Shown here piece after piece: positions 9,373 to 64,000 of a stretch of 64,000 nt of DNA. The stretch is taken from positions 1 through 64,000 of the IMG/VR virus record IMGVR_UViG_3300024346_003797, one strand, 5' to 3'. Numbering within the stretch: position 1 is the first letter of the stretch; every line of letters starts with the position of its first letter. The position numbers and the translations under genes are program-made. The DNA is from a virus. The notes under the pieces are model-generated. The model worked only from the letters and a program-made list of their open reading frames with translations, did no database searches and had not been told where the DNA came from.

Positions 9373-9418
9373 TCAATCCCGTAACTGTTCATTTATCAAC
9401 ATCGGGCTATCTATGTAA

Positions 9419-9460
9419 AGATGAACTTCGTTCATCTAAGAACTCACTTCGTTCGTTCTT
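9419..9460 (-). other. Two abutting C-GAA-G triloop hairpins (ssDNA-type structures)
   Basis: Minus strand: AAGAAC-GA-AC-GAA-GT-GA-GTTCTT (tandem G.A mismatches) followed immediately by perfect AGATGAAC-GAA-GTTCATCT. Confidence 0.7.
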
Positions 9461-9519
9461 TGTTTTTACGGTTATCTATTGTATTTTACTCTATATAATA
9501 TATGGACTATATTGCCGCT

Positions 9520-9861
9520 TTGAAGCCATGGTAGTGCTATTCAGCACTACCAATGGTTAAGGGAATTTGCCATGCCCGTCATCCTTTGTTATCTTTTCCC
9601 CGTCTAATTAGCTATTTGATGCTATTAAACGCTACCGGTTGCTCTGTAAAGTTATGGGACTGTAGTGAAGCTATCAATGGTCTTTCAATTGATTCTTCAG
9701 CAACGCACTTCTCACCCCGCAAAGATAAAGTAGGGATGAGCTTGTTGAGGGTTCGCTTTGTCGATTGCCCTCTCGGTATTCCATAGTTATCACTAACTAT
9801 GCTTACTCCAGATCCATCAGCGTTCTTACACGCATCTTCAAGGAGGTCTTGCAGCCAAGAC
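9520..9861 (-). ncRNA. Candidate large structured non-coding RNA (~340 nt), family not recognised
   Basis: At least 8 hairpins plus nested long-range helices found by hand. G-U wobbles and a GUGA (GNRA) tetraloop favour the minus strand. GC-richer than flanks. No convincing ORF. Confidence 0.65.
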
Positions 9862-9878
9862 AACGAATTTTTATTTGA

Positions 9879-10433
9879 TTATGTAGTTGGGATATTGATA
9901 ACAGTTTGAGTTGACGTTGTGTCTGGTGTTGCCGAATAGGTTTTTAATAATGTACTGTTGTGTAGAAAAAAGTCATCAAATTCAACGATTAGCCAATCGC
10001 CAAACTTGCTTGACGAATAATAGACAAAATTGTCTGTTATCCATGTTGAGCCGCATTGCACGGCAACATAACGACCTTTTCTATTAAACTTCATAAACAA
10101 TAAATTTACGTCACCTGTTTCGGCAACGTCCATTAATTGTTCAATCCATGTATTTATTACTTTGCAGTCGCCTGAAAGTAGTAAGTGAAAAGGAAAATCA
10201 GCATAAAACTTACATTCAATGTTCATCTTACTGAAACTTTGACCGGGTACAATATCACCTTTGAAAGAACGTACTTGTCCTTCATGTAATACTGCTGTTC
10301 TATGCTGATTTTTACCACCAATGTAAGCTCCGGATCCAGGTGCTCTTATAAAGCTTTCGCCATATAGGTCAGAAAGAAACTTTGCAACTTCTCTCTCAAA
10401 TCCTGATCCTTTAGCCTTCTGTGGTGATGTCAT
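9879..10433 (-). CDS. Holliday junction resolvase-like PD-(D/E)XK nuclease
   Basis: KAKGSGFEREVA, RAPGSGA, GDIV, IECK motifs of Hjc-like resolvases. Start re-assigned to ATG 10433 (MTSPQKAKG). Confidence 0.8.
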   Translation of the reverse strand: MTSPQKAKGSGFEREVAKFLSDLYGESFIRAPGSGAYIGGKNQHRTAVLHEGQVRSFKGDIVPGQSFSKMNIECKFYADFPFHLLLSGDCKVINTWIEQLMDVAETGDVNLLFMKFNRKGRYVAVQCGSTWITDNFVYYSSSKFGDWLIVEFDDFFLHNSTLLKTYSATPDTTSTQTVINIPTT

Positions 10434-10438
10434 GTTAA

Positions 10439-10445
10439 TACTTAT
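10439..10445 (-). promoter_or_regulatory. Late promoter motif ATAAGTA (leaderless configuration)
   Basis: GATAAGTA + 5 nt + ATG of the resolvase. Confidence 0.55.
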
Positions 10446-38100: not shown

Positions 38101-41100
38101 ATATCTAGTTCTAGTATTGGGTTACAATCAACACAACCACCAATTGATACAATTTTAGCAAGTGCTCAAGGTGCAGTGTTTGAAGTAGAAGGTGTTACGA
38201 ATGACCAAACACTAGTGTGGAGTTCACGTACACGTAATGTCACACAAACTGTTGCATCTACTGATATCATTACTATTGAACCATCAACAGGTGGTGCACC
38301 AGACGAAGGTTTTGTAGGACCAACAACTGGCTTCTATGTTGATATGCCAGTTAAATTCCAAGGCGCAGTTGGCGCAAGTAATATAGTTAACGGTACAACA
38401 TATTATATAAAATCTATAATTAATGAAACTGATTTTACTATATCTGCAACTGTAGGTGGTGGATTATTTGCATTAGGTAATGCGACTATCAGCACAGCCG
38501 GATTATTGATGTATATAGGTGAAGTTACAAATACTGCGGTAGTTACACTATTCTACCCTGGTATATTAACTGCAACAGCTACTACCGCTACTACTAATAC
38601 AATATCAGTGCCGACAGTTGGTACTAATAATTTAGGTGGCACTAGTGGATTCTATCCTAATTTACCAGTATTCTTTACAGGAAATGTGTTTGGCGGTGTG
38701 ATTGAAAATGAAACTTATTATGTAACAACTGTTATAAATGATGAGACATTTACAATGTCTACTAAAACTGACGCATTAACCATTAGTGTTAACTCAACTT
38801 CTGCAACAGGTAATGTTATCAACTGCACAAGTAGTGTTGGACTTTCTATTAATGACCCTATCATCTTTACTGATATATCAGTGGTATCGGGTACAACAAA
38901 TATTGTTGCAGGAACAACTTATTATGTAAGTGCGATAACTTCTAACTCACAGTTTGTAATATCTAGTGTAGTTAACGGTGGACCATTTAATCCCGGTACT
39001 AGTACTAGTACGATGACAGGTGTGGATCAAAAGGATATTGTACAATTAACAACTACAACCGGATCAATGACATGTAACGTTGGTTTACCAGTAAGTCCAG
39101 GACAAGTTACCGGACAACAGTTTACGTTCTATCCAACATCAACTACAACTGAAACAGTTACTGGAACTAACGGTAATCTAGTTGTAAGAACAATAGATAA
39201 TGCGCTTGCAAATGGAGATTATTTAAGTGTTACTTCACTAAGCGGTGGATTAACTAATATGTATATTAATATGCCAATCACTGTTGCTAGCAACTACGGT
39301 GGTTTAATAGGTGGTACTACATATTACATAAACGAGTTAGGCATTGTACAAAATGATGTAATTGCTACTACTGCTGGTAACTTACTAACATGTACTAGCA
39401 CAGCAGGTTTCTATGATGAAATGCCAATTATATTCAGCGGTACTGCATTAGGCGGATTAGTATTAGATACACTATACTATGTTATTGGATCTTCTATTAC
39501 TAGTACGCAGTTTAAAATATCAGAAACTGCAGGAGGCAGTGAAGTTGATTTGACTAGCGATAGTGGTGCTACTATGACTGCAACTGGTCAACCATATATT
39601 AAGGTATCAGCTACTAAAGGTGGAGGTGTATTCGCATTAACCAATGCAACAACTACGGTAGTAATGACACAAGCACCCACAGCAGTACCTGAATTTGATG
39701 TAAGTTGGGTATTAGGTGGATATACAATAAGCATAAACGATCCAGGTGAAGGATACACACTAGATAATACTATTACTATTTTAGGTACTGATTTAGGTGG
39801 AACAACTCCAGCTAATGATTTGGTTATGACAGTTAATACTATTGACACTATAACTGCAAATCCAAATAATGAGTTCTTACCATTAGAATCTAATGGCTCT
39901 ATTGAGTCAGTTATTGGTTCAGGAACACCTAACGCTACTGTAACACAATATTACTTAAAGGTTATATCTGCGTCAGAGTGTGAAGTATATAGTGATCCTT
40001 TATTACAGATACCCGTAAGTGGAATAAACTTCCCTTATACTACCGGTGATTATACATTACTTCCAGAACCGTTCTACTTCAATCAAAGCATTGTAAAATA
40101 CAATAACAATGTATATCAATGTATTGTAAGTAACAATGATGATGAGTTTATATTTGGTAAATGGGAGTTGTTATTAAGTGATAGTAGAAAACTAAATGCG
40201 TTAGATAGAATTGTTGGTTATTATCAACCAACAGTAAATATGCCGGGATTAGATTTAACACAGTTAGTAGATGGAATTACATATCCAAATAGTACATATA
40301 TGGGTAATGCATTTGCCCCTAATGATGAATATACATTGGACACTATATTACAAGACCAACAGTTTAATCCAACAGCAGTTAATACTACTGCAGTAGTTTG
40401 GAATGGTACAAGATATATTGCTGCCGCAAACACACCTGACTATTCCGATATTATTACAAGTGATACAGGTAGTACATGGGATTTTAATCAAATATCATCA
40501 CAACCGATAGGATTGTCTGACATAACTTATTCTGGTACAAAATATGTAATCAGTTCTACTAATATAGCAACTCCTATATTAATAAGTGATGACGGAGATA
40601 CATGGACTACTACTGGATTGGCAGCTAATACTGTATCAGTTACTAGTACTAGTTTAAATAGCGTTACATATCTAAATGGTTTATATATGGCAGCCGGTGA
40701 TATTATTGTATCAAGTTCGGATGCATATACATGGACAGAAAGATATAGATTTACTAACTCTGTATTATATGGAATACAAGGAATTGATATCAATAACTTT
40801 ACTGGATTTATTGCGGTAGGTTATGGTCCTGACTATAGTGTTATCCCGACAATAACTCAATCGGTTGTATTACGAAGCGTTAATGGTACTGTATGGAATA
40901 ATGTAACTCCATCGGGTTCAGCAGAAACAATGTATGGAGTAACTAGTGGCAATAACATTATTGTTATAGTTGGCGACAATGGTACTATCTTTACTAGTGT
41001 GAATGGTAGTAATTGGGTTGATACAAGTACTGGTAGTGACAATTTAAGAGATGTGGTATATTCTGACAGCCTCGGACTATTTGTTGCAGTTGGACAATCA

Positions 41101-61370: not shown

Positions 61371-61374
61371 CGAT

Positions 61375-61417
61375 TATTTAGTAAAAACTTTGGGTATGTG
61401 AAACATTTTCATAAGTA
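61375..61417. promoter_or_regulatory. Divergent late motifs CTAAATA (-, 61375-61381) and ATAAGTA (+, 61411-61417)
   Basis: 4 and 5 nt upstream of the respective ATGs; no SD on either side. Confidence 0.6.
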
Positions 61418-61422
61418 TAATA

Positions 61423-64000
61423 ATGATTAGAGATGTATTTTATTACGGTAATAAACCCAACGCACACCCAAGAGAAAAACACGCAATTGATTTAGCCGAT
61501 GCTAGAAGTCAATGCACTACTGAACATTTTTGGATAATCAACGAATATTGCGACTACACAAACTTTGATTGGGATTGGGATTTTGACTTTCTACCCGATG
61601 AAGATGTGTGGGCTGAAGAACACAACAACGTATGGCCCAGTAGCTATCAAAAAGATAGTGGTACTTGGTTATGTTCAGAACAAGACAGTCAAGTAATTAT
61701 CTATCGTGCAGATGTGGATCCTGTATCATTAAAAGATATTATATCAGGTAATTGGAAAATCATTGAAGCAATAGACATGCCATCGTTTGATTTTAAATGG
61801 CACCCTGATCCAACTGAGGATCCCTACATATACGTATTTGGTAATCAATGGTATTCTGGTATGATAATGCCTACAGTAGAATATCATGTTCCCGGGGCAA
61901 CAAATAGAAAATACCTAACAGATAAGATAGCGCAACTGTTGCCTATACCTGAACTGTTTGATACGATACATGAAACATTAGACTTTGATTATAGCTGGAG
62001 ACCAGACCCAACTAGCCCACCATATACCTATGTGTTTGGTAATACTCAGTACCCAAGTAGTGTAATGCCAACTATAGAGTACACTGTTGAGGGCGCAACT
62101 GAACGCAAGTTCATCGAACAGATTACACCTAAGCTAAAACCTCAACAACATAAGTTTAATATATTAGAAATTATAGATAGAAACAAGTTTGACTTTAGTT
62201 GGGTACCAGATCCAACTAGCCCTCCTTATATCTATGTGTTTGGTAATACTCAATACCCGGGTACTATAATGCCAACAATAGAATATACTGTTGAAGGTGC
62301 AACAGAACGTAAGTATGTAGATAATATAGTTGCACATTTATTACCAATGCAATCAGTATTCAATACGATATATGAAACATTAGACTTTGATTATAGCTGG
62401 AGACCAGATCCAACTAGCCCACCATATATCTATGTGTTTGGTAATACTCAGTATCCCGGTAATATTATGCCGACCATTGAATATGTAGTAGAAGGTGCAA
62501 CAGAACGCAAGTATATAGATGATATTGTTCCTAACTTAGCACATCAGCCACACAAGTTTAAACTACTAGAAGATATTGATACTACTAAGTTTGACTTTAG
62601 TTGGGTACCAGATCCAACTAGTCCTCCGTATATCTATGTATGGGGTAATCAATGGAATAAACCTGAGGATAAGATTAGTGTGCAGTATGTTGTTGAGGGT
62701 GCGACTGAATACAAGTATATGGAACAACGTGCTACCCGTAAAGCATGTACTGACAACTGGCAGACACCTGGTTATGTAATACAGAACAGCTTTGATTATA
62801 GTTGGGAACCTAATCCAAATGATAATCCATATATCTATCAATTTGGTACACAATGGCAAAAAACAGGCGGCCCTAAGTATATAGTAGAAGGCGCTACCGA
62901 AATCAAGTATGTAGATGTTATTAAAGCAAGTATTGTACCGTGGCAGTTTAAGAACTGGTTAATACCTAGAAATATAGAACAAACTAGTTTTGATTTTAGT
63001 TGGCATCCCGATGATACAGAACCAAACTATATCTATCAATTTGCTAGTCAATGGAGTAAATCGGGCGGCCCACGGTTCTCTATGCCAAACGCAACAGATG
63101 TTAAGTATATTGATTTTCCTATAGCAGTAGCTAAAACTGATATGACACACTGGTCTATACCTGCAGGATTAGATACTAGTGAGTTTGATTACAGTTGGCA
63201 TCCTGATATTGAAGACGAACCCTACATCTATCAGTTTGGAACACAATGGCAAAAGACAGGCGGCCCTGTATTTACTGCACCATTATGCAATGAAACAACT
63301 CCTGTCAAGTATGTTGATATAACAAAAGCAAAAATGTTACCTAATGATAGTAACTGGGTAACACATGAAAACATAGTTGATTTTGATTATAGTTGGCACC
63401 CAGACTCTACTGAACAACCCTATATCTATCAATTTGGAACACAATGGCAAAAGACAGGTGGTCCGTCATATGTAGTTGGGGGTGCTACTGAAATCAAGTA
63501 CGTAGATGTTATAACAGCAAATGTATCAGTTACAACTAAAAATTGGGTAACACATGAGGAAGTTATTGACTTTGATTACAGCTGGCATCCAGATAGTACT
63601 GAACAACCCTATATATATCAATGGGGCAATAAACATTATGGCAGTGATTTACAGCCCACAATAGAATATATTGTACCCGGTGCAACACAAATCAAACATA
63701 TGTCGCAAGATGTTAACCTATCAGTAAGTGACAAATGGATTGAACATTATGATATTGACAAAACTAAATTTGACATGTCATGGAGACCTGATCCAACTAG
63801 TCCTCCGTATATCTATATATGGGGAAATAAACACATTGCTCCTGAACTTAAATCTACCGTTGAGTACCATGTTGAAGGGGCTACTGAGATTAAATACATG
63901 CCGGAGCGATTGGCAGTGTTGCCAGAGTTTGATAGATGGCATGAAATACAGCTAGTTGATAGAACTAAGTTTGATTTGACATGGAGACCTGACCCACGTG
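61423..64000 (+). CDS. Large tandem-repeat protein (>859 aa, truncated at right edge), absent from the ORF track
   Basis: Hand translation MIRDVFYYGNKPNAHPREK... open to the window end. At least 12 copies of a ~63-68 aa unit FD[FY]SW.PDP..PPYIY.[FW]G.Q......Y.VEGATE.KY. Confidence 0.9.
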   Translation, partial: MIRDVFYYGNKPNAHPREKHAIDLADARSQCTTEHFWIINEYCDYTNFDWDWDFDFLPDEDVWAEEHNNVWPSSYQKDSGTWLCSEQDSQVIIYRADVDPVSLKDIISGNWKIIEAIDMPSFDFKWHPDPTEDPYIYVFGNQWYSGMIMPTVEYHVPGATNRKYLTDKIAQLLPIPELFDTIHETLDFDYSWRPDPTSPPYTYVFGNTQYPSSVMPTIEYTVEGATERKFIEQITPKLKPQQHKFNILEIIDRNKFDFSWVPDPTSPPYIYVFGNTQYPGTIMPTIEYTVEGATERKYVDNIVAHLLPMQSVFNTIYETLDFDYSWRPDPTSPPYIYVFGNTQYPGNIMPTIEYVVEGATERKYIDDIVPNLAHQPHKFKLLEDIDTTKFDFSWVPDPTSPPYIYVWGNQWNKPEDKISVQYVVEGATEYKYMEQRATRKACTDNWQTPGYVIQNSFDYSWEPNPNDNPYIYQFGTQWQKTGGPKYIVEGATEIKYVDVIKASIVPWQFKNWLIPRNIEQTSFDFSWHPDDTEPNYIYQFASQWSKSGGPRFSMPNATDVKYIDFPIAVAKTDMTHWSIPAGLDTSEFDYSWHPDIEDEPYIYQFGTQWQKTGGPVFTAPLCNETTPVKYVDITKAKMLPNDSNWVTHENIVDFDYSWHPDSTEQPYIYQFGTQWQKTGGPSYVVGGATEIKYVDVITANVSVTTKNWVTHEEVIDFDYSWHPDSTEQPYIYQWGNKHYGSDLQPTIEYIVPGATQIKHMSQDVNLSVSDKWIEHYDIDKTKFDMSWRPDPTSPPYIYIWGNKHIAPELKSTVEYHVEGATEIKYMPERLAVLPEFDRWHEIQLVDRTKFDLTWRPDPR

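What the first reader, a model, noticed from the sequence alone, without database searches (positions are those of the whole stretch)
9520..9861. Unrecognised ~340-nt highly structured RNA with probable pseudoknots, directly downstream of the Hjc-like nuclease
SEEN (minus strand, plus-strand coordinates): hairpins GUCUUG/CAAGAC (9846-9861), GCGU/ACGC, CAUAGUUA-GUGA-UAACUAUG (9782-9801, GNRA loop), GAGGG/CCCUC (9747-9772), CUCAUCCC/GGGGUGAG (9711-9740, G-U), GAAG.AUCAAU/AUUGAU.CUUC, CGUUUAAU/AUUAGACG (9601-9631, G-U), GGGAA/UUCCC, and a perfect 10-bp UGGUAGUGCU/AGCACUACCA (9529-9552). Nested helices UACCG/CGGUA (9774-9778 with 9633-9637) and GUUGCU/AGCAAC (9699-9704 with 9638-9643) close multibranch junctions. 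Two loops are complementary over 8 nt: UUAUCUUU (9721-9728) and AAAGAUAA (9589-9596), extendable by UCAUCC/GGAUGA into an alternative duplex. UUGAAG (9836-9841) matches CUUCAA (9520-9525) end to end. This is by far the largest non-coding gap in a densely packed window. I do not see tmRNA, RNase P, 6S, SRP or group I/II intron landmarks. INFERENCE: a ribozyme-sized or switch-like phage ncRNA, probably co-transcribed late with the resolvase (ATAAGTA at 10439, no terminator between). It could be an RNP partner of the nuclease, a replication primer/R-loop RNA, or a virion/packaging RNA.
Basis: partly seen in the sequence, partly recalled or inferred. Interest (0 to 1): 0.9.

Follow-up and report, generated by a model that had tools for sequence, protein, structure and literature searches.

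The report
New double-pseudoknotted jumbo-phage RNA
The gene-free gap behind the resolvase-like nuclease gene of this uncultured giant freshwater phage encodes a real, intricately folded RNA of about 360 bases that matches no catalogued RNA family. One of its loops always carries the same letters as its 3' tail, which hints that it grips its own DNA template, as a replication-primer RNA does.

Summary
Confirmed. Window 9871-9511 (minus strand) is a conserved non-coding RNA, about 453 nt long if the AU-rich spacer and two terminal hairpins (to 9419) are counted.

- **Conservation:** 168 distinct homologs come from about 275 related IMG/VR stretches, and no reading frame is conserved.
- **Structure:** 95% of cells in 89 proposed base pairs are canonical, and 65 pairs show double (compensatory) changes. 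Both controls fail to reach this: 0 of 500 shuffles, and about 40% paired after sliding.
- **Tertiary features:** two pseudoknots join into a three-strand junction. There is also a likely U.A-U / C.G-C triple, a GNRA loop and tandem G.A pairs.
- **Strand:** G.U outnumbers A.C 524 to 131, so the minus strand is the RNA sense.
- **Known families:** Rfam 15, ARAGORN and rRNA comparison give nothing. The RNA occurs once per complete 349-525 kb genome. It is absent from PA5oct, Phosso and SCTP-2, and its hairpin motif is absent from 185,579 prokaryote genomes.
- **New here:** a small hairpin loop (H8) and the 3' tail carry the same 6-9 letters and change together, in about 14 scattered lineages for one position. 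No complementary partner was found in the RNA. One relative keeps the RNA but lacks the nuclease.
- **Best mechanism (about 30%):** ColE1 RNA II-like capture of its own template DNA, seeding an R-loop in the AT-rich tract.

Earlier agents of this scan found the same RNA in other genomes and left its function unknown.

The parts
9864..9871 (-). Conserved leader box A-(A/C)-A-A-U-U-n-G just after the nuclease stop codon; role unknown (start of the RNA, or a promoter remnant)
   Evidence: Nearly invariant columns A15, A17, A18, T19, T20, G22 of alignment A1. It does not fit the phage's late-type boxes seen upstream of structural genes.
9846..9861 (-). H1 hairpin (GUCUUG / CAAGAC)
   Evidence: All 6 pairs have changes on both sides (helix 1).
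9806..9845 (-). Pc helix CUCC 9845-9842 / GGAG 9809-9806, enclosing H2 (9837-9816). H2 comprises pair A9837-U9816, tandem G.A/A.G, and GCGU 9833-9830 / ACGC 9823-9820.
   Evidence: Pc is 100% paired, with CUCU/AGAG in two sequences (helix 2). Pair 9837-9816 is G-C 73, A-U 17, G-U 5. H2 covaries (helix 3).
9782..9801 (-). H3 hairpin capped by a GNRA tetraloop (GUGA here; GCGA, GCAA or GUAA in relatives); carries large insertions in a few relatives
   Evidence: All 8 pairs have changes on both sides (helices 4-6). Loop letters.
9774..9778 (-). Pa 5' strand UACCG, pairs with CGGUA 9637-9633
   Evidence: 98.3% paired; U-A 60 / C-G 22, and GUC/GAC variants (helix 7).
9747..9772 (-). H4: GAGGG/CCCUC, with inner 3-bp hairpin UCG 9764-9762 / CGA 9755-9753
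   Evidence: 99.8% paired, 4 of 5 pairs with double changes (helices 8-9).
9707..9745 (-). H5 (ACA..AGU base, stem 9740-9733 / 9718-9711). Its loop supplies C9730 and U9729 (helix alpha) and 9728-9723 (PK1 5' strand).
   Evidence: 10 of 11 pairs have double changes, 98.9% paired (helix 10).
9699..9704 (-). Pb 5' strand GUUGCU, pairs with AGCAAC 9643-9638; stacks directly on Pa
   Evidence: 97% paired; GUUACA/UGUAAC and GUUGUC/GACAAC variants (helix 12).
9667..9698 (-). H6 variable hairpin (base GAAG/CUUC)
   Evidence: 4 base pairs with double changes; the inner part varies in length (helix 13).
9644..9666 (-). Highly conserved junction ACUACAG-UCCC-AUAACUUUACAG. It holds A9661 and G9660 (helix alpha), UCCC 9659-9656 (PK2 5' strand), and U9650 (candidate third base of a triple on U9778-A9633).
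   Evidence: Alpha: C-G 64, U-G 20, U-A 10. PK2 is 98.6% paired and all 4 pairs covary (helix 14). Triple columns: U/A/U 102, C/G/C 21, and C at 9650 sits with G at 9633 in 24 of 26 cases.
9633..9643 (-). Pb 3' strand AGCAAC followed directly by Pa 3' strand CGGUA
   Evidence: helices 7 and 12.
9601..9631 (-). H7 hairpin (11 bp)
   Evidence: 10 of 11 pairs with double changes, 97.3% paired (helix 15).
9589..9600 (-). Shared 3' strand of both pseudoknots: GGGA 9600-9597 (PK2), then AGAUAA 9594-9589 (PK1)
   Evidence: PK1's six inner pairs are 100% paired, five of them with double changes (helix 11). Among the top mutual-information pairs in 168 sequences.
9561..9577 (-). H8 mini-hairpin GGG/CCC. 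Its loop carries motif copy 1, whose first letter K (G9575) is the closing base of the stem, followed by CAUGGCAA (9574-9567).
   Evidence: The closing pair is G-C 26 / U-A 19. The loop letters change together with the 3' tail.
9529..9552 (-). H9: perfect 10-bp hairpin, almost invariant in sequence
   Evidence: The exact 24-mer is found in more than 118 viral contigs, including ones whose nuclease is only about 70% identical. 99.7% paired (helix 16).
9511..9518 (-). 3' tail motif copy 2 (K-C-G-G-C-A-A-U, K = G9518), identical in its variable letters to the H8 loop
   Evidence: K:K is G:G 101 and U:U 34, with 3 discordant. Of 59 informative sequences 35 are identical, against a mean of 7.7 and a maximum of 16 in 2000 permutations. 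Changes to GGUAA, AGCAA, GGCAG, GGCAU, GAUAAU and GUUGAA occur in both copies together.
9461..9510 (-). AU-rich, purine-rich spacer (candidate DNA-unwinding or R-loop tract)
   Evidence: AT is 74 +/- 7% in 137 homologs, against 56% in the RNA core and 64% genome-wide. Purines are 62% in the RNA sense.
9419..9460 (-). Two conserved hairpins with C-GAA-G triloops. T1 (9460-9438) has an inner ACGAAGU mini-hairpin flanked by tandem G.A. T2 (9437-9419) has 8 bp and is followed by UUUACA. They are a probable terminator and/or single-strand DNA hairpins on the strand an R-loop would displace.
   Evidence: Compensatory changes in both stems across relatives. No strong U-run was found by the terminator scan.

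Best explanation
**What it is (shown, near-certain).** It is a single-copy gene for a new class of large structured RNA, read from the minus strand. About 361 nt form the conserved core (9871-9511). An AU-rich spacer and two hairpins follow, to 9419.

**The fold.**
- A 5' domain: H1, Pc/H2 and H3, the last with a GNRA loop.
- A core closed by the stacked long-range helices Pa and Pb, which hold H4, H5 and H6.
- A 3' domain: H7, H8, H9 and the tail.
- One strand after H7 pairs with the junction (PK2) and with the H5 loop (PK1). The H5 loop also pairs with the junction (helix alpha). These three helices lock the core into a three-strand junction.

**How it most likely works (inferred, about 30%).** It acts in cis at its own locus, like the ColE1 primer RNA II.
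1. The folded body presents the H8 loop, whose letters always equal those of the 3' tail. The loop is therefore complementary to the template DNA strand at the tail site, about 57 nt downstream.
2. As RNA polymerase passes that site, the loop captures the template strand.
3. The transcript stays hybridised through the AT-rich tract, forming an R-loop.
4. The displaced strand folds into the C-GAA-G hairpins.
5. The hybrid primes or licenses DNA replication.

A variant of the same idea is that the loop displaces the nascent 3' end and so sets the RNA's end.
For: **It is a structured RNA.**
- Covariation statistics and mutual information in 168 sequences, effective number about 95.
- G.U to A.C ratio of 524 to 131 fixes the strand.
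- No conserved ORF.
- No Rfam, tRNA or tmRNA match.
- One copy per complete genome.

**For the mechanism.**
1. Identity covariation, not complementarity, links the H8 loop and the tail at four positions. Whole-motif replacements occur in both copies together.
2. The U:U state is scattered in about 14 blocks of the tree. Variable columns lying between the two motifs are not linked to it (mutual information below 0.09).
3. No complementary partner exists in the RNA or within +/-2.5 kb. Two identical RNA segments are each automatically complementary to the other's template DNA, so no third co-evolving partner is needed.
4. The tail is the last conserved element before a conserved AT-rich, purine-rich tract, followed by covarying C-GAA-G hairpins on the RNA-sense strand.
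5. There is a precedent. In ColE1, an rG stretch of RNA II must pair with a dC stretch of the template near the origin to form the persistent hybrid. T4 oriF and oriG also start from R-loops (PMC4412123).
6. The RNA does not depend on the nuclease gene (L243).
7. In a complete 348.7-kb relative the RNA lies 4.5 kb from the cumulative GC-skew minimum. It points into the arm with positive skew.
Against: - No R-loop, primer or origin has been demonstrated.
- A primer RNA would not obviously need a ribozyme-grade core with many invariant unpaired bases.
- The GC-skew minimum sits at the divergent promoter region and can be explained by gene orientation alone.
- The only recognisable promoter-like boxes upstream (ATAAGTA at 10445-10439; also in L243) resemble the boxes before structural genes. 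That suggests late rather than early expression.
- These phages carry no RNase HI gene, so host RNase H would be needed.
- The function of the invariant H9 hairpin is not explained.
- The 5' leader GUUGUC can pair with GGCAAU in most members, though without covariation, so an internal partner is not fully excluded.
Confidence: 0.32

Rival explanations
1. A trans-acting stable RNA: a ribozyme, the scaffold of a ribonucleoprotein, or an RNA-only multimer like GOLLD and ROOL. It works away from its locus. The two identical motifs would be twin docking sites for one partner.
For: - A ribozyme-grade architecture: two pseudoknots, a candidate triple, a GNRA loop, and many invariant unpaired bases at junctions.
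- The H9 helix is sequence-invariant, as protein- or RNA-contact sites often are.
- Pieces of the RNA occur in metatranscriptome libraries of four studies.
- Phage-borne large ornate RNAs of unknown function are a known kind (PMC12286853).
Against: - A protein partner would have had to change specificity every time the twin motifs changed. That is about 14 scattered switches at one position plus complete motif replacements.
- No complementary RNA partner was found nearby.
- No catalytic activity or partner is known.
- The expression evidence is low-depth contigs that cannot exclude DNA carry-over.
Confidence: 0.3
2. A 3'-UTR element of the sbcD-sbcC-nuclease operon. It would protect the mRNA from 3' exonucleases or set its end, with no function of its own.
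For: - It begins 8-20 nt after the nuclease stop in about 230 loci.
- No terminator lies between gene and RNA.
- One RNA-library contig bridges the gene and the RNA.
- Two hairpins end the unit.
Against: - A 360-nt double-pseudoknotted core that is more conserved than the neighbouring proteins is far more than a stabiliser needs. An exact 24-mer is shared by loci whose nuclease is about 70% identical.
- L243 keeps the RNA behind a different gene, with its own ATAAGTA box.
- Related phages with the same operon lack the RNA.
Confidence: 0.1
3. A DNA-level origin or protein-binding site. The two identical direct repeats would be iterons flanking an inverted repeat (H9), bound by an initiator protein. 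The RNA fold would be secondary.
For: - Identical short direct repeats flank a perfect, invariant 10-bp inverted repeat next to an AT-rich tract. This is the usual layout of iteron origins.
- The locus lies near the GC-skew minimum.
Against: - The rest of the element shows strand-specific RNA-type covariation with abundant G.U pairs.
- The first repeat is the loop of a covarying hairpin.
- An initiator protein would have to re-adapt at each of the many concerted repeat changes.
Confidence: 0.08
4. A riboswitch-like sensor that controls read-through of the T1/T2 hairpins. Read-through would make antisense RNA against the convergent orf58 / gp51-like baseplate genes.
For: - A large aptamer-like fold is followed by terminator-like hairpins.
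- The next genes are on the opposite strand.
Against: - No alternative pairing between the fold and the hairpins was detected.
- A roughly 50-nt unconserved spacer separates them.
- No known aptamer matches.
Confidence: 0.05

Closest known systems
ColE1 primer RNA II (and the R-loop origins oriF and oriG of phage T4)
   Same: - A long folded transcript followed by an AT-rich tract.
- An upstream RNA segment has the same letters as the transcript of a downstream site, so it can pair with the template DNA there. In ColE1 this is the rG stretch with the dC stretch (PMC4412123).
- It is a single-copy, cis-located element.
   Different: - No sequence or Rfam relationship.
- Far more intricate and conserved tertiary structure.
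- No antisense RNA I counterpart is seen.
- No origin, RNase H cut or primer has been shown.
- The motif is a mixed 6-9-mer in a small hairpin loop, not a G run.
GOLLD (RF01998) and ROOL (RF03087) large ornate RNAs
   Same: - Large, highly structured non-coding RNAs.
- Carried by phages or prophages, with unknown function.
- Discovered by comparative genomics and metagenomes (PMC12286853).
   Different: - No match to either Rfam model.
- Smaller: about 360 nt, against roughly 580-800 nt (from my own knowledge).
- Not next to tRNA genes. In the complete relative the tRNAs lie about 100 kb away.
- Oligomerisation was not tested.
Group I intron core (P3-P7-P8 pseudoknot)
   Same: - The topology: a long-range helix (Pa/Pb) encloses a strand (UCCC). 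That strand pairs with a strand lying just after the next hairpin (H7), as P7 does around P8.
- A GNRA loop and a possible base triple.
   Different: - It is not inside a gene, and there is no downstream exon.
- No J8/7 segment. The PK2-to-Pb junction is 12 nt where group I has J7/3.
- No P4-P6 domain.
- No hit to the Rfam intron model at E up to 10.
Bacterial RNase P RNA
   Same: - Size.
- A hairpin followed by GGAA-U-ACCG, and a distant ACAGAGCAACCGG. These loosely recall the CR-I and CR-V strands of helix P4 (a resemblance from memory).
   Different: - No Rfam RNase P hit at E up to 10.
- About 130 nt with three more hairpins follow the P4-like 3' strand, instead of P2/P1.
- No 5'/3' closing helix has support.

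Membership tests
Any Rfam 15 family (4227 models) | Score at or above the family's gathering threshold | tested here: not met
   No hit in the whole window at gathering threshold. Only chance-level hits with E of 0.2 or more on the 651-nt region and on a divergent homolog, with no family shared between the two.
tmRNA | tRNA-like acceptor/T-arm domain plus a tag reading frame | tested here: not met
   ARAGORN finds nothing in the window. It does find a separate permuted tmRNA at 38.3-38.7 kb in the complete relative, far from this RNA.
RNase P RNA | Match to RNase P covariance models; P1/P2 closing helices pairing the 5' and 3' ends | tested here: not met
   No RNase P model hit at E up to 10. 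Proposed 5'/3' end pairings show no covariation.
Group I intron | Interrupts a gene, with exons that join into one frame | tested here: not met
   It lies between convergent genes. No minus-strand ORF follows it, and no frame is conserved across it.
Group I intron | Conserved core (P4-P6, P3-P9, G-binding P7) recognised by the Rfam intron model | tested here: not met
   No hit at E up to 10. Only the P3-P7-P8-like topology is shared.
ColE1 RNA II-type primer RNA (works-like, not homology) | An upstream RNA segment able to pair with template DNA just before the hybrid-forming tract | tested here: met
   The H8 loop and the tail carry identical letters that change in concert, so the loop is complementary to the template at the tail site. 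An AT-rich tract follows.
ColE1 RNA II-type primer RNA (works-like, not homology) | Persistent RNA-DNA hybrid, RNase H processing and DNA synthesis starting at the site | not testable with these tools
   Needs wet-lab mapping. There is only indirect context: the GC-skew minimum is 4.5 kb away, and the phage has no RNase HI gene.
ColE1 RNA II-type primer RNA (works-like, not homology) | Antisense regulator (RNA I) overlapping the 5' part | tested here: inconclusive
   Weak sigma-70-like matches occur on the plus strand inside the element, at a rate like that of shuffles. There are no strand-resolved reads.
GOLLD / ROOL-type ornate phage RNAs | Match to RF01998 or RF03087 | tested here: not met
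GOLLD / ROOL-type ornate phage RNAs | Homo-oligomeric RNA-only assembly | not testable with these tools
   No RNA 3D or oligomer predictor is available.
Riboswitch / cis-regulatory leader | Sits upstream of the regulated gene on the same strand | tested here: not met
   There is no same-strand gene downstream. The next genes are convergent.
Protein-coding gene (83-aa ORF 9612-9863, minus strand) | Reading frame conserved in relatives | tested here: not met
   In 119 unique homologs the open frames differ in frame, place and length. No Pfam or PHROG hit.

The most novel reading that the evidence does not exclude
A ribozyme-grade 'ornate primer RNA'. The folded core positions a loop copy of its own 3' tail so that the nascent transcript seizes its template DNA and founds an R-loop origin of a 350-525 kb jumbo phage. 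This would be an RNA-structure-programmed replication start with no described counterpart in phages. If not that, the twin motifs mark another identity-dependent process, such as template jumping.
Probability: 0.3. Interest if true: 0.9.

Novelty: categorically new. Interest (0 to 1): 0.8.

Why it matters
Large RNAs with this degree of tertiary structure are rare, and almost every earlier class turned out to be a ribozyme, a riboswitch or an RNP core.

This class is abundant in freshwater, estuary and run-off metagenomes. It is single-copy and universal in a clade of 350-525 kb phages, and it already has enough sequence diversity for a reliable 2D model and for cryo-EM or SHAPE work.

The identity covariation between a loop and the 3' tail is an unusual evolutionary signature, because it selects sameness rather than complementarity. 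It gives a direct, cheap experimental handle: break and restore the identity.

If the R-loop reading holds, it would locate a replication origin in jumbo T4-like phages and show a new way for RNA structure to programme replication initiation.

Tried and rejected
- **Known RNA families.** Rfam at gathering threshold and at E up to 10, on the window and on a divergent homolog, gave nothing meaningful.
- **tRNA/tmRNA scan.** Nothing in the window.
- **rRNA mimicry.** This was prompted by an invariant CCUCCUUGA and by some 16S-like strings. Local alignment to E. coli 16S and 23S scores no better than shuffles, and the CCUCC pairs internally with GGAG.
- **Coding potential.** Rejected.
- **Homologs in cultured relatives.** nhmmer and covariance model R1 on PA5oct, Phosso and SCTP-2 gave only noise, E of 0.4 or more. 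The four PA5oct ncRNAs reported in PMC7318152 lie elsewhere. blastn against 50,697 phage records found nothing.
- **Prokaryote genomes.** The H9 pattern is in none.
- **Reverse transcriptase.** Sought for a template-jumping reading of the twin motifs. No RVT_1 in three complete genomes.
- **RNase HI gene.** None.
- **Complement of the tail motif.** None within +/-2.5 kb or in any alignment column, apart from the H8 closing base.
- **5' leader GUUGUC with GGCAAU.** Pairs in most members but without covariation.
- **Longest-common-substring test of loop against tail.** Too blunt: 5.3 against 4.5-4.7. The column-wise test was used instead.
- **Laying metatranscriptome contigs.** Low-depth pieces only. 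No ends, no strand, no abundance, and parts without cover mean nothing.
- **GC skew.** The minimum coincides with the divergent promoter region, so it does not discriminate.
- **Not used.** Complex prediction, structure prediction and the large protein searches, because no protein question was decisive.
Full report
**Setting.** The window is part of a 77-kb IMG/VR contig, about 22% complete. It comes from an uncultured T4-like jumbo phage. Complete relatives are 349-525 kb, and the nearest cultured relatives are PA5oct-type phages, with SbcC 43% identical.

Gene order on the minus strand is late sigma factor, SbcD, a small ORF, SbcC, and a PDDEXK_15 (T5 D14 / 'RusA-like') nuclease at 9879-10433. 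The 506-nt gap 9373-9878 follows. It faces the convergent orf58 and gp51-like baseplate hub genes.

- The minus strand of 9520-9861 folds at -99.5 kcal/mol, against -84.6 +/- 5.2 for dinucleotide shuffles, z = -2.9. The plus strand gives z = -1.9.
- Comparative evidence is much stronger. Searching IMG/VR with the nuclease protein, with the 24-nt H9 hairpin and with a junction pattern returned nearly 290 loci.
- nhmmer aligns about 275 stretches, which give 168 distinct full-length copies at 70-97% identity.
- Conservation runs from 9871 to 9511. A second block lies at 9460-9419.
- Open frames differ in frame and place between copies, so the 83-aa ORF is not a gene.

**Secondary and tertiary structure.** I counted a 16-helix model on 95 sequences that are less than 97% identical to each other.
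- 94.9% of 8318 cells are standard pairs, against 80.0% in shuffles and 33-45% after sliding the partners.
- 65 of 89 pairs have changes on both sides, and 0 of 500 shuffles reach any of the five measures.

PK1's six inner pairs are 100% paired.

- GGGAA/UUCCC has 64% pairing and no covariation.
- The end-to-end UUGAAG/CUUCAA pairing does no better than shuffles.
- The UCAUCC/GGAUGA extension is not supported.

New elements found here are:
- a second pseudoknot, PK2: UCCC 9659-9656 with GGGA 9600-9597 (helix 14);
- a 2-bp helix alpha joining the H5 loop to the junction, C9730-G9660 and U9729-A9661;
- an extension of H2 through tandem G.A pairs to A9837-U9816;
- the mini-hairpin H8;
- a three-column covariation, U9778-A9633 with U9650 changing to C-G with C, as a major-groove triple would give.

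PK1, PK2 and alpha share strands and close a three-strand junction. H3 ends in a GNRA tetraloop. G.U pairs outnumber A.C 524 to 131, so the minus strand is the RNA sense.

**Is it a known RNA?** No.
- Rfam 15 gives nothing at gathering thresholds. At E up to 10 it gives only unrelated, chance-level hits, and the window and a divergent homolog share none of them.
- ARAGORN finds no tRNA or tmRNA here. The complete relative carries a separate tmRNA and 25 tRNAs elsewhere.
- Apparent resemblances to 16S rRNA are not significant.
- RNase P-like and group I-like features are limited to local motifs or topology (see the membership table).
- A 2023 screen of IMG/VR reported only candidates of 29-151 nt (PMC10690425), so at most fragments could have been listed there. 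Its supplement is not held.
- Earlier agents of this scan met the same RNA in at least seven other genomes. They also found no family and no function.

**Distribution and context.**
- Covariance model R1, built on the 3' domain, finds exactly one copy in each of three complete genomes (349-525 kb), in a 67%-complete 250-kb relative and in the window's own contig.
- It finds nothing credible in PA5oct, Phosso or SCTP-2. The H9 pattern occurs in none of 185,579 prokaryote genomes.
- Synteny (SbcC, nuclease, RNA, then the convergent orf58 and gp51-like genes) holds in all 165 loci with enough upstream DNA and all 162 with enough downstream DNA. It also holds in the more divergent loci.
- There is one exception. 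L243 has a radical-SAM / SPASM gene and a SegE-type GIY-YIG endonuclease instead of the nuclease. It keeps the whole RNA and an ATAAGTA box about 85 nt upstream. The RNA therefore does not depend on the nuclease gene.
- Pieces of the RNA appear with no mismatches in contigs of metatranscriptome libraries from four studies, and one contig bridges the nuclease gene and the RNA. Depth is 3-6, and contigs show neither strand nor ends. This is only weak evidence of expression.

**The unexpected signature.** The strongest non-Watson-Crick signal in the alignment links the H8 loop and the 3' tail. The loop reads K-C-A-U-G-G-C-A-A, where K (G9575) is the closing base of the hairpin. The tail reads K-C-G-G-C-A-A-U (9518-9511). 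The two copies are the same, not complementary, and they change together.
- K:K is G:G 101, U:U 34, with C- and A-type pairs in further clades. Only 3 sequences are discordant.
- G to A, C to U and A to G/U changes inside GGCAA occur in both copies.
- In divergent clades the whole motif is replaced in both places at once: GGUAAU, AGUAAU, GAUAAU, GCAAGUA, GUUGAA.
- Column-wise, 35 of 59 informative sequences are identical at K, against a mean of 7.7 and a maximum of 16 in 2000 permutations. Three further positions also exceed all permutations.
- On a tree built without these columns, U:U appears in about 14 scattered blocks.
- Variable columns lying between the motifs are not linked to K, so a recombining block does not explain it.
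- Apart from the H8 closing base, no complementary partner exists in the RNA or within 2.5 kb. The 5' leader can pair with GGCAAU but does not covary.

**Mechanism.** Selection for sameness of two RNA segments has a simple reading: each is then complementary to the DNA template of the other. This is what ColE1 RNA II needs. There, an upstream rG stretch pairs with the template dC stretch near the origin to make the persistent hybrid that primes replication. T4 oriF and oriG also start from R-loops (PMC4412123).

Here the tail is the last conserved element before a conserved AT-rich tract: 74% AT, against 56% in the core and 64% genome-wide, with purines at 62% in the RNA sense. Two covarying hairpins with C-GAA-G triloops follow on the strand that an R-loop would displace. 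Another first-stage note had flagged these hairpins as origin-like.

In the complete relative, the RNA lies 4.5 kb from the cumulative GC-skew minimum and points into the positive-skew arm. The minimum itself coincides with the main divergent promoter region, so it is not independent evidence.

I therefore put an RNA II-like, cis-acting, R-loop-seeding role first, at about 30%.

Evidence against this role:
- the ribozyme-grade core is unexplained;
- the upstream boxes look late-type;
- there is no phage RNase HI;
- there are no direct data.

**Rivals.** A trans-acting ribozyme, RNP or multimer is nearly as likely (about 30%), but it explains the twin motifs poorly. A pure 3'-UTR stabiliser, an iteron-type DNA origin and a riboswitch-controlled antisense are less likely. 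No reverse transcriptase is encoded, which argues against a phage-encoded template-jumping process.

**Verdict.** This is a genuine, new class of large double-pseudoknotted RNA specific to a clade of freshwater jumbo phages. The structure is shown. The function is inferred. The loop/tail identity rule offers a sharp experimental test.

Noticed in passing
window 9419-9460: Both terminal hairpins keep C-GAA-G (or GNA) triloops. The first has an inner mini-hairpin (ACGAAGU here, GCGAAGC in relatives) flanked by tandem G.A pairs. Both stems covary across relatives.
   Followed up: partly
window 9379-9397 and 9466-9471: A further conserved box (GAUAAAUGAACAGUUACGG in RNA sense) lies beyond the second hairpin. 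Its UUACGG is complementary to CCGUAA upstream of the first hairpin, so the two could enclose both hairpins. Covariation was not tested.
   Followed up: no
L243:5786-7161: In one relative the PDDEXK nuclease gene is missing between sbcC and the RNA. A radical-SAM gene, a SPASM fragment and a SegE-like GIY-YIG homing endonuclease sit there instead. Two copies of AAACAGACACCAAGUCA and two small hairpins precede the RNA.
   Followed up: partly
window 9581 joined to 10038 (RNA-library run X16): One metatranscriptome contig joins position 9581 of the RNA back to 10038 inside the nuclease gene ('goes back 458', 4 letters of overlap, depth 5.9). It could be a template-switch artefact, a rearranged strain or a permuted molecule.
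   Followed up: no
complete relative G001 (348,701 bp): 38,319-38,707 and 193.5-202.9 kb: The relative encodes a permuted tmRNA (tag ANDSQFALAA) and a cluster of 25 tRNA genes. Both lie far from this RNA, which is at 91.1-91.5 kb.
   Followed up: no
complete relative G001, about 86.5 kb and about 212 kb: Cumulative GC skew has one minimum (86.5 kb, corresponding to the window's divergent promoter region near 14.8 kb) and one maximum (212 kb). This splits the genome into two arms of opposite skew and gene orientation.
   Followed up: partly
L199 (Sinorhizobium phage Phosso):4987-6000: About 1 kb has no annotated gene and no ORF above 74 aa. It lies between an RNase HI gene and the homologous resolvase gene. 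There is no Rfam hit and no match to this RNA. In PA5oct the corresponding hub-to-resolvase interval (2.2 kb) holds only tiny hypothetical ORFs.
   Followed up: partly
window 61371-63727: A 2.3-kb stretch has only short ORFs (57, 97 and 63 aa), so the RNA gap is not the only poorly coding region of the window.
   Followed up: no
several relatives, e.g. L219:4553-5593: In some clades about 1 kb of extra DNA separates sbcC from the nuclease gene, where the window has only a 34-nt gap.
   Followed up: no
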